DNA of 14,168 bases, taken from NCBI GenBank assembly GCA_046760225.1, contig JBHIDR010000020.1, forward strand, positions 1-14,168. Reading direction: 5' to 3'. Position numbers: made by a program. Positions 3,001-9,000 of the stretch are shown here, in pieces (position 1 is the first letter of the stretch; each line of letters begins with the position of its first letter). Source of the stretch: Candidatus Aenigmatarchaeota archaeon. Its GTDB lineage: Archaea > Aenigmatarchaeota > Aenigmatarchaeia > Aenigmatarchaeales > JACQIB01.

Positions 3001-6000
3001 ATTTGTTGGTTTCCTTGCAGGGTTTGCTGACCTGACAAATGCTCTTGGAACAGGAACAGGAATACTGCTGGCTGTTATGATAGTCTATCAGTTTTACGAA
3101 ACAATTGCACAGCAGCACATGGAGGAAATGCACCCTGCTGTAAGAAAATTCATGGGAGGAAGTTAAGTATGAGGATAATAATGCTCGGGCCACCTGGTTC
3201 AGGAAAAGGCACATATTCGAAAAGAATGAGCCCAGAGCTGGGAATACCACATATATCAACAGGTGATATTTTCAGGGAGCACCTGAAGAAGGAGACGGAA
3301 ATAGGCAAGAAAATAAAAGAGGTTATGAGGTCAGGAGGTCTGGTTCCCGATGATATTGTCATGGAGATTGTGAAGGACAGGCTTTCAAAGGAGGATGCGC
3401 AGAAAGGGTTCATATTCGATGGATTTCCAAGAACACTCTTCCAGGCAAAGGAACTTGAGAAGACGGTGAAAGTGGATGTTGTGGTGAACCTCTATCTTCC
3501 GGACGATGTTCTGATAGAGAAGCTGAGTGCGAGGAGAATATGCAAGGAGTGCGGTGATATCTATAACATAGCTGACATAAACCGCGAAGGGATAAGGATG
3601 CCTGCAATGAACCCGAAGGTCCAAGGAAAATGTGACAAGTGTGGCGGTGAGCTGATTCAGAGAAAGGATGATACAGAAGAAGTGATAAGGGAAAGGCTCG
3701 AAGTATACAAAAAACAGACAGAACCGCTGATAAAGTTCTACAGGGATAAGGAGCTTATCCTTGATATAAAGGTCACAGACCCGCCAGGGATAATGGTACC
3801 GAGAATATTGGGAGAAATCAAGAAATTTAGAGGTGAGAAATATGGTTGACTTTTATTTTGGAATATTGAACGCGCTGTTCGCGCCAGTACTGGTGTTGCC
3901 TCCGATACTAGCAGAGATGGTAATAGCTGCAGTAATAGCCTTCATAATAACAATCTTTTACAAGAAGATGGTCAATCAAAGTGAACTCAAGGAGCTGAAA
4001 GAGGAGCAGAGGAAGCTTCAGGAAAAGGTAAAGGAGCTCCAGAAAACAAACCCGGACGAGGCGAACAGGCTCACAAAGGAGATGCTCAAGCTCACGAACA
4101 AACAGATGAAGATGAACTTCAAGCCAATGCTGCCCACGCTGCTACTTGTAATAATACTGTTCCCATGGATAGCATCGGTCTTTATGAGCAGTGAGCATCT
4201 TCTGAGGGCCATGCTTCCCTTCACCCTTCCGTTCTTTGGTAATGACTTTGGATGGCTGATGTGGTACATAGTGGTTTCAATACCGTTTTCACAGATATTC
4301 AGGAAACTGCTGGGTGTTCAATAATGAGAAGAGCTCAAAGAACAAGAACAATGAAGAAGACAAGGGTCAGGACCCCTGGTGGAGAGACAGTTATCAGGAT
4401 AAAAAAGAGGAGGCCTGGCTACCATGAATGCGGAAGATGCGGTGCAAAGCTGAACAGGAGAAGGATGAGAGCAAAGGAGATAAGGAAACTGCCAAGAACA
4501 CAGAGAAGGCCTGAGAGGCCATTGCCTGAACTTTGTTCCAGATGCATGAGGGAGGCAATGAAAGCAAGGGTGAAAGGATGATTAAAATCGATGAAAAAGA
4601 GTATGAGCTTGCATGCAAGGCAATGAGGGAGATAGAGCTAGCTAACGACTCATGGGAGAACCTGAACTTTCCGGGTTATTTTTACCATTCAGGCAAGGCA
4701 ATGTACATCACATTGGTGGGGATCGCCTACGACATAAAGAAAGCGGTGAGAGGATGATGGAAAGGGGCAGAGTGTGCATGAAGATTGCTGGCAGGGAAGC
4801 TGGCATGTACTGCGTAATAGTTGAAGAGCCTAAGGAAGGCTTTGTCATGATTACTGGACCGAAGAGCGTAACAAGGGTGAAGAGGAGGAAGTGCAACATC
4901 ATGCACATAGAAGTGACAGAGCACGTGCTGGACATAGGAAAGGGCGATGATGACTCTATTGAAAAGGCATGGAAATCATCCAATATGATAGAAAAGCTCA
5001 ATATTTCTTTGCCAAAAAAGAAGAAGGAAAGGAAGGAGAAAAGAGAAAAGCCCAAGAGAAAGCGGAGGAAAAAGGCCAGGCCCAAAAAAGTTGAGGCAAG
5101 AAAATAAATAGAATAACGCCCATTATTTCTCTAATGACAAAGGCCAAACAACCTTCTCTGCGTGCTACACTATTCGGTATCTCAGATGAAAACACCACCC
5201 TTATGAAATATATCAGACTGGCTCAGCCGCTCAGTGAACCTGAGCATCTGAAGTTAATGTTGGGGGCAGCATCCAAATTCGATGGTTCTTTATCTGCTTT
5301 GAAAGGATGTGAACAGCGACTTGAAACAGAAGATAAAAAGGAAAAGATAGTTAGAGATTATAAGGCCTATATGCTGCATCCAGATATGGTTGGAGTATCA
5401 ATTAGGCACAATAAATGCTGATTTACCAGAAAGGAAGGAATCTTCGCAAACAGTTTATCTTAACAGTTTCAACGCCTGGACAGACAATACAGAAAAAGTA
5501 ATAGACGAGCTTGCAATGAGATATTCTGCTAAAGGAGGGAACGTTTATCCCAGGCGCAATCTTACTTATGATGAAATCAGGGCATGTGCATTAGCATCTG
5601 GAATGAGTGAAGAGGAATTTTCTGGAGGCATGGATGTTGCCCCTGATACTGAATATATAGTAATGGGCGGTCTTGTAGAAAGGATAGTTGATGGTAAAAA
5701 GGTTATGGTCCAATCATATGATATCACTCCAGATGTTGCCAAATCATTGGACTGTCTTATGTGGCTATTAAAGATGGAGCCAAAACCTAAAGAAGTTTTA
5801 CCAAGACATTATTGACAAATGTTTCAATTTCTTTCATATAATTCTATGCAGCCTCCTTCGCTTTTTCCGCAGCTACCGCTCAGTTCCTTCTTAAGCCTCG
5901 CTGCCCTTCGGGCCGCTTCGCTAGCTCGGCTAAGAGGAACCTTCGCTAAAACGCTGCTCAAAAAAAGCTTCGGAGGTGTTTATATGAAGCTCCCAGAAAA

Positions 6001-9000
6001 TTTATATCATACTAAACTCAATAGTAAATTTAGGAGAACCATGAATATAAAAAATAAGGTGTTTTACAGGGAGATAATTCATCCAAATATCTTGCAGGAA
6101 TTTTTGAAGCTAGAGAAGCCAATAATGGTCTTTGAGACAGAAATCAATAATGTCGATAAGAGTGCTTTCGCAACCTTTCTGGCCAAGCAGAGAAAGGAGG
6201 CAAAGATTGAAATAGGTAGCATTGTGCTTTTCAGGGCAAAGAAGAACAAAAAGACTTTTGAGTTCACTTCCAAATTGGGAAATTGGGGGAAATTCCATAT
6301 TCCAAAGGAACTTGTTGAAACATTGAGAATCAAAAACCATGAAAGAATTGTTTTTGAGACTATCGCAAAGAACTCCAAACCGATTCCGAGGGCGCAACCT
6401 ATAGATTTAGCCGATATTACAAGTATGGATAGCAGACTAAAAATTATATTACGCCCAAAAGGGTTTGTAACCATATGGAAAAAAGCGCATACACCTATAA
6501 CCGTGCCTAGATTCCTAGAACCTTCAGAGGATTTATTTGTTTTTGCTTACTTAATGCATGGAGATGGGCATTATAAAAGTAAATTTTTCTTCTCTAATGC
6601 TAGTTATAGATTGCATAGATTCGTTATGGAAAAGTTCGAAGAGATATTTACTCTCCCTAAAAATATGTGGAGGTGCAGGGTTTCCCATCATAAAGAGGAT
6701 CCAGCTGTTAAAATTTACTGGAAGAAGGCACTTGGTTTTAGCGAAGAGCAATTCTACCCAAAAATATCAAGGACACGCTTCGGAATGTTAAAGCGTGGTA
6801 ATGCAAGAACAACAATTGATTATAAACTCGTTGCTACTGTCTTCCGATTTGTCTTTGGCAAACTGAATGACATGATTGATGAAGGCAATGCTTTGCATGC
6901 GCTCGATGGCATACTAAATGCAGAGGGTAGTGCTGGCATATACAAGAATGGCCTTCACAAGTTAACTATATCCTTTAGTCAATCTGAGAAGGATATGTTT
7001 GCAAAAATATTGAGAAAGTGTGGATTTCTAGGGTTATGTAATTGTTTGAATGATAGGTTTGTAATGGGAGACTGGAATAATTTCTATCAGCTCATAAGGA
7101 AATTTCATGAGAACAGGCTTGTGCCCTTTAGTCAAAATCCTGTGAGAAGCGCAAATGTCGTTAATGGTCTCTTAAATCATAGATATACTAAAACTATTAC
7201 AAAATACTTGAAAGCTATAGATGATGATGGACGTACATTTGCCGAAATAGCCAAAGGATTGGGTCATAAAAGGGCGTCTGTTGCCAAGGAACTGAGAAAC
7301 AAGAGATTTGATGATTTTATTAAAATAGAAGGTAGAGGCATAAACAGAAGCCCTTTAAGAGTTTCTATCTCTAAAGAGGGTCTGGGATTTTTAGAAGTTA
7401 TTAAGTGGTTGGAGCAACAACGTCCAATCATAAATAAACTATTAATTGAAGATGAACAACTTGAAAGGAGGTGGATAAGCTGAATAAAAGGAAATGGTTG
7501 ATAAGATCTCATGAAGTTTCGCTGCCTGAATACGGAAAATATCCTGGGGCAAGGACAGACGAGGAGATGCTCAAGAACGGCATAATAATTCTTGACAAGC
7601 CACCAGGACCAACATCACATCAGGTGGATGTCTGGATAAAGGAGATTATTGACGTGCACAAATGCTCACATGGTGGGACCTTAGATTTTAGCAGGTTGAT
7701 ATAACACTGTTATATAAAGGAAATCCCCGTGTGAGTGGAGTTTTAATACTTGCTTTGGAAAACGCCACAAAGCTCATGCCTATTCTTCTTTCCAGCAGAA
7801 AGGAATATGTGGCCCTGATAAACCTCCACAGGGAGGTGGAAGAAGGCAAGATTAAGAAGGTGCTGCAGAAGTTCAGGGGAAAGATAAAGCAGCTTCCACC
7901 AAAAAAGGCTGCTGTTGCGCGGCGTGTGCGCGAAAGGGAGATTTATTATCTTGAGGTTCTTGAGATTGACAAAAGAAACATTCTTATAAAGGTTGGTTGT
8001 GAGGCAGGCACATACATAAGAAGGCTGGCTGATGATGTTGGTAAGGAGCTTGGTATTGGCGCACACCTGCAGGAGCTGAGAAGGACCAAGAGCGGCACAT
8101 TTACAGAGGAGCAAACAGTGAAAATGCAGGATGTTGTTGATGCTGTGGCTGAAGACAGGATAAGGGATATTGTGCTTCCAATGGAGAGTATAGTTGAAGA
8201 TATAAGGAGTGTTGTGATAAAAGACAGTGCTGTTGATGCAATATGCAACGGCGCTCCACTGAGTTCAGGCGGAATATCAAGACTGGAGGAAGGAATAGTG
8301 AGAGGTGAGTGGGTAGGCATCCTTACGCTCAAGGGAGAACTGGTTGCAATTGGCAAAGCTACCATGAACAGCAAGGACATGAAAAGAAAGAAGGGAATAG
8401 CAGTAAAAACAGACAGGGTGCTTATGAAGAAGGGAACCTATCCTAAGATGTGGTAAGTTTCTCTATTATCTTGTCTGCTACTTGTTCTGCTGTAAGGTTT
8501 GATGTGTCAATAACCATGTCTGCTTCTTTTTCAAGGTCAGAAGGTGTAAAACCATAAATCCTTTTGAAATTCTTTCTTTCTAGTTCCTCTTTTTCCTTTA
8601 GTTGTCTGAGCGCTGTTTCATAGTCTATTCCTTCTTCTCTTTGCGTTATTCTCTTTGCTCTTACTTCTATTGCTGCCTTTAGCCATACCTTTAGGTCAGC
8701 TTTCTTTACAAACCTGATTGAGAGCTTTCCATCTATCACTATGTTGCCCTTGTCTGCAAGCTCTTGCTGTTTCCTGTCTATTTCCTCATGGAATGACTTG
8801 CTTGAGCCCTTTTCTGTTCTCCAGACATCCACTGCTGCTTTTGTCTCCTTTCCTGCTCCATGGGACTTGAAGAATTTTCCAGGTGAGAAATAACCGATGC
8901 CCAATTTTTCAGAAACAAGCCTTGACACTGTGCTTGTGCCGCATCCTGGCTGGCCGGATATCACTATAACTGGCATAGTTATAAATAACTATTTACAAAT

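What a model noticed while it worked through the whole genome (the two positions that open the first line are those of the whole stretch)
5984..7722. Free-standing LAGLIDADG genes abut the 5' ends of genes that carry ORF-free mini-introns (cbf5, uppS, three tRNAs)
Several free-standing LAGLIDADG genes are inserted so that they run a few bases into the start of a gene with an ORF-free BHB intron close by: g00639 ends 12 nt inside cbf5, whose intron lies 202 nt further on (C20); g00190 ends inside uppS, 46 nt before its intron (C3:41903-42945); g00540, g01055 and g00080 run into the 5' ends of tRNA-Gly (C16:1954-2912), tRNA-Pro (C72:49-908) and tRNA-Leu (C1:59015-59904), each with one or two short introns. 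Endonuclease gene and intron are both absent at these sites in the genus mate. A testable reading is collaborative homing: the endonuclease cuts the intron-less allele at the intron site and both move together.
Evidence so far: Coordinates from genes.tsv and calls 46, 77, 136. Genus mate: eL14-cbf5-trm112 and lysS-uppS are adjacent without the endonuclease gene; the 859-nt insertion with g00540 starts 1-2 nt before the tRNA-Gly 5' end and that tRNA gained a 44-nt intron. Of about five protein genes abutted by such a gene (uppS, cbf5, udg, tes/fen1, g00203) two have an intron, against 9 of 1090 genes overall. Two relatives of g00176 in other genomes of the order also lie just upstream of tRNA genes.
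(Added by a program. Inside this text positions count along the whole contig: contig position 1 is position 1 of the stretch shown here. "Call 12" and the like, gene names such as g00115 and contig names such as C1 are that model's own, and its searches are not shown. The text may have been shortened before it was handed on; [...] marks where a part breaks off. The agent that wrote the report below was given it as the finding of a first reader that could run no searches.)

Follow-up and report, generated by a model that had tools for sequence, protein, structure and literature searches.

The report
Endonuclease gene paired with cbf5 mini-intron
A gene for a DNA-cutting "homing" enzyme sits directly in front of an essential RNA-modifying gene whose active-site codon is split by a tiny spliced-out insert, and the same pairing recurs in dozens of other very small archaea, which suggests that the insert shields the gene from the enzyme and spreads with it.

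Summary
Window 5984-7483 encodes a 499-aa protein. Pfam and NCBIfam do not recognise it, but a confident model (pLDDT 94.9) shows a double LAGLIDADG nuclease core between a PHS018/AbrB-like N-domain and a MarR-type winged helix. Its stop lies 13 nt inside cbf5. cbf5 carries a 38-nt bulge-helix-bulge intron (7685-7722) inside the catalytic Asp codon, the site known from crenarchaeal cbf5. The genus mate has neither insert.

New here: relatives of this protein form 39 sequence clusters in other genomes and metagenomes. All 33 clusters with enough flank lie beside cbf5, and 27 of those cbf5 genes carry a 13-38-nt intron at the same site. Among cbf5 genes without the endonuclease gene the intron is rare: about 12 of 149, 0 of 24, 0 of 28 and 5 of 25 in four samples. 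In four lineages the carrier stands alone among kin that lack both features.

Three of the six intron-less carriers have a one-codon insertion next to the site that none of the other 108 uninterrupted loci checked shows. Related endonuclease genes abut aIF5B (P-loop intron in 3 of 4) and uppS (2 of 2).

Collaborative homing, with the intron giving immunity, is the best reading (about 0.55). It is unproven: there are no cleavage data, two unexplained exceptions and no co-conversion trace.

The parts
5984..7483 (+). Free-standing endonuclease gene (g00639), 499 aa. Relatives align from residue 20, so Met at 6041 is an alternative start.
   Evidence: ORF and translation. Family of 61 representatives. 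Model pLDDT 94.9.
6113..6385 (+). N-terminal PHS018/AbrB-like beta domain (model residues 25-115, counted from 6041).
6518..7195 (+). Double LAGLIDADG nuclease core (model residues 160-385). Acidic residues are D175 (6563-6565) and E295 (6923-6925).
7208..7375 (+). C-terminal MarR-type winged helix-turn-helix, followed by a long helix to the end of the protein.
   Evidence: Profile A3 against PDB: MarR family E 7e-7. Foldseek finds MepR/MarR chains.
7471..7684 (+). cbf5 exon 1, starting at GTG inside the end of the endonuclease gene.
   Evidence: DKCLD domain E 7.7e-12. 75% identical to the contiguous cbf5 of G001.
7685..7722 (+). 38-nt bulge-helix-bulge intron that splits the catalytic Asp codon (G|AU).
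   Evidence: Sequence and fold. Same site in 26 other endonuclease-linked clusters, with exon 1/intron covariation CUCU-AGAG, CCUU-AAGG, CACU-AGUG, CCCU-AGGG. Same site as the crenarchaeal cbf5 introns (PMC2738675, passages).
7723..8456 (+). cbf5 exon 2 (TruB_N, TruB_C_2 and PUA domains).
   Evidence: Pfam.
5108..5983 (+). Rest of the 2363-nt stretch (5108-7470) that G001 lacks between eL14 and cbf5. It holds two ORFs of unknown family (5134-5421, 5390-5815) and a structured 168-nt leader (5816-5983) that pairs the endonuclease gene's ribosome-binding site.
   Evidence: Whether this stretch belongs to the mobile unit is not known.

Best explanation
g00639 is a free-standing, cbf5-specific LAGLIDADG homing endonuclease of a previously unnamed clade. 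The clade has a PHS018/AbrB-like domain, a double LAGLIDADG core and a MarR-type winged helix.

Proposed mechanism:
1. The enzyme recognises the DNA that encodes the Cbf5 catalytic motif (...GGN ACN YTN GAY CCN...) in intron-less alleles and cuts there.
2. The break is repaired from an allele that carries both the endonuclease gene, about 200 nt upstream at the cbf5 start, and the mini-intron. Both are copied in.
3. The mini-intron splits the recognition site, so the carrier is immune.
4. The host pays little, because its tRNA-splicing endonuclease and RtcB remove the intron from the mRNA through a BHB built largely from exon sequence.
5. Alleles that keep the intron after losing the endonuclease gene stay resistant.

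Shown here: the anatomy, the fold, the conserved acidic residues, the BHB with covariation, the strict linkage to cbf5, the enrichment of the intron, lone carriers among naive kin, and the presence of EndA and RtcB.

Inferred: the cleavage site, immunity through the intron, and joint transfer.
For: 1. Fold and active-site residues.
2. All 33 evaluable clusters lie at the 5' side of cbf5, while the gene on the other side differs (eL14, eL31/eL39, VapBC-like, Lrp-like, RT-like). cbf5 is therefore the only constant.
3. 27 of 33 carry an intron of 13-38 nt at exactly G|AY of the Asp codon.
4. Among cbf5 genes without the endonuclease gene the intron is rare. About 12 of 149 listed in the class have it. 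So do 0 of 24 kin of G372, 0 of 28 kin of G371 and 0 of 17 further kin of G374. Among kin of G373, 5 loci have it, 18 do not and 3 are unresolved.
5. G000, G371, G372 and G374 are each the only genome in their kin sample with either feature.
6. Of 111 loci with an uninterrupted H.GTLDP motif, 110 have the spacing DPxVxGVL. The one exception is L043, a carrier without intron, which has an extra codon 3' of the site. Two further intron-less carriers, L236 and L240, have the same insertion.
7. The same design occurs at other genes. Sister endonuclease genes directly upstream of aIF5B go with 20-nt inserts in the P-loop coding region in 3 of 4 loci, and the fourth has a variant P-loop. g00190 and its 51%-identical ortholog in G004 both abut uppS, which carries an intron in DG|NRR. 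Five family mates have neither.
8. G000 has two EndA genes and RtcB.
9. The nearest relative, L227 (81% aa identity), has the same arrangement and a 38-nt intron with 28 of 38 bases identical.
Against: - No cleavage, splicing or transfer was observed.
- L241 and L244 carry an intact endonuclease gene beside an intron-less cbf5 with normal spacing. L246 has only DP>DN.
- Window against L227: the endonuclease gene is 79% identical in DNA, but identity drops to 68% right at the gene border. Exon 1 is no closer than exon 2 and is closer to the gene-less G001 (73%). A joint conversion tract has therefore left no trace.
- The gene is under strong purifying selection (dN 0.10, dS 1.6). All 39 cluster representatives are unbroken. 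This also fits a host function, although the search patterns favour intact copies.
- At least 17 genomes have the intron without the gene.
- Contigs of four runs show no allele without the gene or without the intron.
Confidence: 0.55

Rival explanations
1. The gene is a mobile free-standing homing endonuclease gene, but its cut site lies at or near its own insertion point (the cbf5 start) or elsewhere. The intron is a linked passenger or an older, independent feature of the alleles it happened to invade. Immunity then comes from the insertion itself.
For: DNA identity between the window and L227 drops sharply exactly at the border between the endonuclease gene and cbf5, and exon 1 is not co-converted. 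Six of 33 carriers have no intron. Introns without the gene are common in some clades. Sister endonuclease genes that sit convergently at the 3' ends of TFB, RtcB, ProRS and Tyr/TrpRS show full-length host ORFs by Pfam coverage, so not every member needs an intron.
Against: The upstream flank is not conserved between loci, and the first roughly 30 codons of cbf5 are variable, so there is no conserved target at the junction. Linkage alone does not explain four lone carriers that gained both features relative to naive kin. It does not explain the same pairing at aIF5B and uppS. It does not explain the one-codon insertion beside the intron site in three intron-less carriers.
Confidence: 0.2
2. 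The protein is a domesticated LAGLIDADG DNA- or RNA-binding factor rather than a mobile nuclease. It could be a WhiA-like regulator of cbf5 or a maturase-like helper for splicing very short, relaxed BHB introns.
For: Two extra DNA-binding domains, AbrB-like and MarR-type. Strong purifying selection (omega about 0.06), stronger than on Cbf5 itself. 39 of 39 copies are unbroken. The stop/start overlap suggests co-expression with cbf5. WhiA and the bI3 maturase are among the fold matches.
Against: Both catalytic acidic residues are kept; from recall, WhiA lacks them. The distribution is extremely patchy: 1 of 42 genomes in the order, and lone carriers in four kin samples. Genomes with the intron but without the protein exist, so splicing does not need it. 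Six carriers have no intron to help. Broader family members in other genomes carry in-frame stops.
Confidence: 0.17
3. Coincidence: the endonuclease genes insert in short operon spacers at random, and the nearby introns are unrelated.
For: Within this one genome the numbers are small. Many of its tRNAs have introns anyway: 16 of the 25 tRNAs listed by aragorn with introns allowed.
Against: 33 of 33 beside cbf5 and 27 of 33 with the same-site intron, against roughly 7% in cbf5 genes without the endonuclease gene.
Confidence: 0.03

Closest known systems
Collaborative (trans) homing in phages: F-CphI with the psbA group I intron of cyanophage S-PM2, and mobE with the I-TevIII intron of T4. Papers seen only as search listing and abstract starts (PMC6083498, PMC2790892). 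Details are recalled.
   Same: A free-standing endonuclease gene lies next to a gene that carries an ORF-less intron in a conserved site. The intron is proposed to interrupt the target, and both spread by repair.
   Different: Here the intron is an archaeal BHB intron of 13-38 nt removed by host enzymes, not a self-splicing group I intron. The enzyme is a LAGLIDADG protein, not Endo VII-like or HNH. The host is a cellular archaeon, not a phage. Nothing has been tested at the bench.
Crenarchaeal cbf5 pre-mRNA intron (Yokobori et al. 2009, PMC2738675; passages read).
   Same: A BHB intron between the first and second base of the catalytic Asp codon of cbf5. Lengths there are 16-44 bp, here 12-38 nt. 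Gain and loss are patchy.
   Different: The lineage is different: very small DPANN-type genomes, and MAGs labelled Woesearchaeota or Nanoarchaeota. That paper states the intron is too short to encode a nuclease and names no associated nuclease. Here a nuclease gene sits next door.
Archaeal intron-encoded LAGLIDADG endonucleases (I-DmoI, I-Tsp061I) in rRNA BHB introns.
   Different: g00639 lies outside the intron, has two added DNA-binding domains and matches no Pfam LAGLIDADG model.
WhiA (domesticated LAGLIDADG plus helix-turn-helix regulator).
   Different: The catalytic acids are kept. The distribution is patchy and not clade-wide.

Membership tests
LAGLIDADG homing endonucleases | Two alpha-beta-beta-alpha-beta-beta-alpha half-domains packed through the LAGLIDADG helices | tested here: met
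LAGLIDADG homing endonucleases | Acidic residue at the end of each LAGLIDADG helix | tested here: met
   D175 and E295 are invariant in A2. GDG in 39 of 39 and AEG in 32 of 33 representatives.
LAGLIDADG homing endonucleases | Match to a curated sequence model (PF00961, PF03161, PF14528 and others) | tested here: not met
   No LAGLIDADG family at E<=0.01 for g00639 or for any of the 9 A2 members. NCBIfam gives none. The A3 profile against PDB reaches only the TliVMA intein endonuclease at E 0.05.
LAGLIDADG homing endonucleases | Site-specific double-strand cleavage of a long target | not testable with these tools
   Needs a bench assay.
LAGLIDADG homing endonucleases | Presence/absence polymorphism at a fixed genomic site | tested here: met
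   Always at the cbf5 5' side (33 of 33). Absent from the genus mate and from 41 other genomes of the order. Lone carriers in four kin samples.
Collaborative homing (free-standing endonuclease plus ORF-less intron) | Endonuclease gene adjacent to a gene with an ORF-less intron in a conserved site | tested here: met
Collaborative homing (free-standing endonuclease plus ORF-less intron) | The enzyme cuts the intron-less allele at or near the intron insertion site, and the intron-bearing allele is immune | not testable with these tools
   Indirect only: enrichment of the intron (27 of 33) and a unique one-codon insertion beside the site in 3 of 6 intron-less carriers. Two carriers have an ordinary site.
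Collaborative homing (free-standing endonuclease plus ORF-less intron) | Endonuclease gene, intervening exon and intron are co-converted | tested here: inconclusive
   Both features are gained together relative to kin in four lineages. Exon 1 shows no raised similarity between the window and L227, but synonymous sites are near saturation.
Collaborative homing (free-standing endonuclease plus ORF-less intron) | The intron is a self-splicing group I intron (as in the described phage cases) | tested here: not met
   The 38-nt intron has a BHB motif and no Rfam hit.
Archaeal BHB intron | Two 3-nt bulges separated by a 4-bp helix, flanked by helices; cleavage restores the gene | tested here: met
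   GGGA/CCUU/AG|A ... AAGG/AA|A/UCCC. Splicing restores GTLDP. Four covarying pair types across loci.
Archaeal BHB intron | Splicing endonuclease and ligase encoded in the genome | tested here: met
   Two PF01974 genes on C2 and RtcB on C35.
Archaeal BHB intron | Spliced RNA observed | not testable with these tools
   No RNA run is listed for this stretch.
WhiA-like domesticated LAGLIDADG regulators | Loss of the catalytic acids and clade-wide vertical conservation | tested here: not met
   The acids are kept. 1 of 42 genomes of the order has the gene.

The most novel reading that the evidence does not exclude
BHB mini-introns in archaeal protein-coding genes, and possibly many non-canonical tRNA introns, arise and persist as immunity elements against free-standing LAGLIDADG endonucleases that target the DNA of catalytic motifs. 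This would explain why such introns sit in the Cbf5 Asp codon (also in Crenarchaeota), the aIF5B P-loop and the UppS DGNRR motif. It would also explain why their distribution is so patchy. The endonuclease and intron would form an archaeal two-part mobile element that uses the host's tRNA-splicing machinery in place of a ribozyme.
Probability: 0.35. Interest if true: 0.92.

Novelty: new variant of a known kind. Interest (0 to 1): 0.86.

Why it matters
The origin and patchy gain and loss of the cbf5 mRNA intron has been an open question since it was described. The 2009 study notes that the intron is too short to encode a nuclease (PMC2738675). A dedicated nuclease gene next door, tied to the intron in dozens of genomes, gives a concrete hypothesis that can be tested at the bench.

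If the hypothesis holds, it extends collaborative homing from phage group I introns to cellular archaea and to protein-spliced BHB introns. It would give introns a defensive role against selfish nucleases. It would also provide a new LAGLIDADG clade, invisible to Pfam, with long targets in universally conserved genes.

In five searches of the held library I found no paper that links cbf5 introns, or any BHB intron, to a free-standing endonuclease. Subscription journals are largely outside that library.

Tried and rejected
- Single-sequence AlphaFold model of g00639: pLDDT 32, unusable. Replaced by the model built on alignment A3.
- tblastn of g00639 against its own genome: no paralog. The protein alone against 42 genomes of the order: no hit.
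Repeated with the narrower A2.
- Rfam on 5000-8600: nothing.
- Rfam did not find the tRNA-Leu, and aragorn did not either. The tRNA was read by eye only.
- Sequencing runs: no RNA holder is listed. Contigs of X1-X4 show no joint that skips the endonuclease gene or the intron. X1 and X2 cover the stretch only in fragments.
- Independent-pairs test on the first cbf5 tree: uninformative, because kin of the other carriers were not sampled. Replaced by four kin samples.
- Conservation profile of cbf5 DNA: the intron site ranks 16th of 938 windows. The site was located with a pattern that fixes those bases, so the result is biased and is not used.
- Co-conversion test against L227: no signal, and synonymous sites are near saturation.
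- o5134 and o5390: no family in Pfam or NCBIfam and no counterpart at other loci.
- Reading the endonuclease gene as part of a large BHB intron in the leader was considered. No 5' exon piece is needed, because G001 shows that cbf5 and the tRNA-Gly begin where the insert ends.

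
Full report
**What is in the window**

The window is contig C20 of an 851-kb, 83-contig archaeal genome. 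It holds the conserved cluster secY, adk, two small genes and eL14. After a 2363-nt stretch (5108-7470) come cbf5, cmk and further genes.

The genus mate G001 has secY-adk-o3833-o4252-eL14 followed directly by cbf5. It has none of the 2363 nt and no interruption in cbf5.

The stretch holds three things:
- two ORFs of unknown family, 5134-5421 and 5390-5815;
- a structured 168-nt leader;
- the 499-aa ORF 5984-7483.

The stop of that ORF lies 13 nt inside cbf5, which starts at GTG 7471.

**The cbf5 intron**

Exon 1 ends ...CAU GGU GGG ACC UUA G. Exon 2 begins AU CCC CGU GUG AGU GGA. Joined, they give HGGTLDPRVSG, the TruB/Cbf5 catalytic motif.

The 38 nt between them (7685-7722) sit in a canonical bulge-helix-bulge:
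- outer helix GGGA/UCCC, exon with exon;
- central helix CCUU/AAGG, exon 1 with the 3' end of the intron;
- bulges AG|A and AA|A.

The split falls between the first and second base of the catalytic Asp codon. Yokobori et al. assign the crenarchaeal cbf5 introns (16-44 bp) to exactly this place. They remark that the intron is too short to encode a nuclease (PMC2738675, passages read).

The genome encodes two splicing-endonuclease subunits and RtcB.

**Is g00639 a LAGLIDADG endonuclease?**

Sequence models do not recognise it:
- no Pfam LAGLIDADG model at E<=0.01 for it or for any of 9 relatives;
- nothing in NCBIfam.

It belongs to a small family: 61 representatives at E<=1e-3 among 1.84 billion proteins.

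A model built on 32 family members is confident (pLDDT 94.9, pTM 0.91). It shows three parts:
- The C-terminus is a MarR-type winged helix (profile E 7e-7).

The acidic residues that close the two LAGLIDADG helices (LMHGDG, ILNAEG) are invariant in the close family. Across cluster representatives they are present in 39 of 39 and 32 of 33.

**The family is tied to cbf5 and to the intron**

Pattern scans returned 14 loci from species-representative genomes and 31 from metagenome contigs. The genome loci are MAGs labelled Woesearchaeota or Nanoarchaeota. Together with the window they form 39 clusters at 95% DNA identity.

Six clusters run off a contig end on the relevant side. In all 33 others the gene lies at the 5' side of cbf5. 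At least 27 are on the same strand, with stop and start abutting or overlapping. Five are divergent.

The neighbour on the other side varies, so cbf5 is the only constant.

In 27 of the 33 clusters, cbf5 carries an insert of 13-38 nt at exactly the same G|AY position. The intron's 3' end covaries with the Leu codon of exon 1: CUCU-AGAG, CCUU-AAGG, CACU-AGUG, CCCU-AGGG.

**Background and independence**

Among cbf5 genes without the endonuclease gene the intron is uncommon.
- In the class of G000, 14 of the 150 listed matches had a short open frame. Including G000, 13 proved to have a 12-38-nt intron.
- None of the 11 loci fetched and scanned holds a family member within the fetched flank (about 3 kb or less). 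G027 has no LAGLIDADG-like ORF, judged by eye, within 1.4 kb upstream. G024 was not checked.

A first tree could not test independence, because kin of the other carriers were missing. I therefore sampled about 30 relatives around each of four carriers.

| Carrier | Kin with cbf5 examined | Result |
|---|---|---|
| G372 | 24 genomes | all have the uninterrupted site and no family gene in the locus |
| G371 | 28 genomes | same |
| G374 | 17 further loci, plus 11 shared with G372 | same |
| G373 | 26 loci | 5 have the intron without the gene, 18 are uninterrupted, 3 are unresolved |

G000 is likewise the only one of 42 genomes of its order with the gene. It is one of three among the 31 checked with the intron.

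So in at least four lineages a lone genome has both features against naive kin.

In the endonuclease tree the window's protein groups with P0001/L227 and then with L048 (SH-aLRT 95). Its cbf5, in contrast, sits inside its own order.

**The intron-less carriers**

There are six: L043, L236, L240, L241, L244 and L246.
- L043, L236 and L240 have an extra codon just 3' of the site (DPxxVSGV).
- Among 111 loci with an uninterrupted motif, four of them second copies of the same gene, L043 is the only one with altered spacing.
- L246 has DN in place of DP.
- L241 and L244 have an ordinary site. All three of L241, L244 and L246 belong to one endonuclease clade and have odd substitutions in the other conserved Cbf5 motif.
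- All six endonuclease genes are intact.

**The same design at other genes**

The family profile finds relatives in 62 of 371 genomes of the class. Among the 29 best loci other than the window's, subfamilies sit beside:
- aIF5B (4 loci);
- TFB (5);
- Trp/TyrRS (3);
- RtcB (2);
- DEAD/Lhr helicases (2);
- DHH proteins (2);
- ProRS, an Elp3-like enzyme, topoisomerase VI and a SIS-domain protein (1 each).

The four aIF5B loci copy the cbf5 layout, with the endonuclease gene directly upstream on the same strand. Three have a 20-nt insert in the P-loop coding region (GH|VDHGKT or GHVDHG|KTT). The fourth has a variant P-loop, GHIDAGKTS. Members at the 3' ends of TFB, RtcB and others show no obvious interruption by Pfam coverage. 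I did not examine them base by base.

In the window's own genome:
- g00190, a PF14528 protein, abuts uppS. uppS has a 23-nt BHB intron in DG|NRRYA.
- Its ortholog in G004 (51% identity) abuts uppS with a 13-nt intron at the same place.
- Five family mates have neither feature.
- g00540 lies between the HIT gene and tRNA-Gly, exactly where G001 has a 13-nt spacer. The tRNA gained an intron.
- The ORFs upstream of tRNA-Pro and tRNA-Leu end 10 and 25 nt inside the tRNAs.

Of 19 loci of g00190 paralogs, 18 from other genomes of the class and one in G000 itself (L103, the g00540/tRNA-Gly site above), 8 lie directly upstream of an aragorn-called tRNA on the same strand. Seven of those tRNAs have an intron.

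**Reading**

The best fit is a two-part selfish arrangement.
1. The nuclease targets the DNA of a catalytic motif.
2. A mini-intron breaks that target in the carrier.
3. Host enzymes remove the intron from the RNA.

This is collaborative homing as described for phage group I introns (papers seen as listings only), transposed to BHB introns.

It explains:
- the fixed partner gene;
- the intron enrichment;
- the joint appearance in lone genomes;
- the alternative 'fix' by a codon insertion;
- the intron-only alleles, as resistant survivors.

**What speaks against it**

- There is no biochemical evidence.
- Two carriers have an ordinary site.
- Between the window and its nearest relative L227 the endonuclease gene is 79% identical in DNA. 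Identity falls to 68% at the gene border, and exon 1 (68%) is no closer than exon 2 (68.5%). It is less close than to the naive genus mate (73%). The intron shares 28 of 38 bases.
- Synonymous sites are near saturation: dS is 1.6 for the endonuclease gene, 2.4 for exon 1 and saturated for exon 2. The higher identity of the endonuclease gene is therefore mostly low dN (0.10 against 0.26-0.27).
- Such strong constraint, together with 39 of 39 unbroken copies, also fits a host-beneficial, domesticated protein. However, the search patterns favour intact copies.
- Contigs from four runs show no polymorphism.

I put collaborative homing with intron immunity at 0.55, a mobile endonuclease with another target at 0.20, a domesticated factor at 0.17 and chance at 0.03.

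**Novelty**

In the held library I found no paper that links a free-standing endonuclease to cbf5 or to any BHB intron. Only Yokobori et al. holds 'cbf5' and 'homing endonuclease' together.

The concept is known from phages. New here are the intron type, the enzyme clade, the cellular archaeal setting and the breadth: cbf5, aIF5B, uppS and tRNAs.

Noticed in passing
window 5816-5983: The 168-nt leader before the endonuclease gene folds to -55 kcal/mol (z -3.8). It pairs the gene's Shine-Dalgarno GGAGGUG (5972-5978) with an upstream CAGCCUCC. This could sequester the ribosome-binding site and keep expression low. No Rfam family matches.
   Followed up: partly
window 5134-5421 and 5390-5815: Two ORFs (95 and 141 aa) lie inside the stretch that the genus mate lacks. 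They match no Pfam or NCBIfam family and have no counterpart upstream of the endonuclease gene at other loci. They could be cargo or a separate insertion.
   Followed up: partly
window 8443-8976 (-), 9500-10879 (+), 10881-11447 (-): cmk, a radical-SAM gene and a 188-aa ORF are not found in the corresponding stretch of the genus mate. There, cbf5 is followed by a fragment of o9116 and then o11357.
   Followed up: no
G000 C8:16724-22032, C1:42935-46858, C3:24967-25736: The genome has 37 PF14528 matches. About eight lie in very long frames (inteins). Three ORFs lie inside a 5.3-kb 23S rRNA gene and one inside a stretched 16S gene. aragorn calls a tRNA-Tyr with a 693-nt intron that holds a LAGLIDADG ORF.
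   Followed up: partly
G000 C13:18534-18645 and 18712-19356: A partial match to archaeal SRP RNA (35 bits, below the gathering score) lies just before a free-standing LAGLIDADG ORF. The SRP RNA gene may be interrupted by it.
   Followed up: no
G000 C35:1477-2834: RtcB, the ligase needed for BHB splicing, is itself split near residue 50, with two TAG codons between the pieces. This may be another mini-intron.
   Followed up: no
L044:3968-5533, L050:3968-5521: The endonuclease ORF has no stop of its own. It runs in frame through cbf5 exon 1 to the stop at the start of the intron, so splicing would decide what the ribosome makes.
   Followed up: partly
G000 C3:41926-41995: uppS exon 1 has no ATG, GTG or TTG in frame between the end of the endonuclease gene and the intron. 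The start codon used is unclear.
   Followed up: no
L060-L063: aIF5B genes directly downstream of sister endonuclease genes carry 20-nt inserts in the P-loop coding region, at two different positions. L062 has no insert but has the variant P-loop GHIDAGKTS.
   Followed up: partly
L229:2141-3825; G437:C29:5601-7880; G390:C44: Other interruptions of cbf5. In L229 about 1.6 kb separate the intron site from the rest of exon 2. In G437 cbf5 lies in an 858-aa open frame (possibly an intein). In G390 the gene is split near residue 110.
   Followed up: no
window 7332-7483 in run X1: A 163-nt contig matches the 3' end of the endonuclease gene with 22 differences and continues differently after 7483. 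This may be a second, related copy in the same community.
   Followed up: no
L043:579-1708: Upstream of the intron-less carrier L043 lie ORFs with a reverse-transcriptase-like YVDD motif, read by eye only.
   Followed up: no
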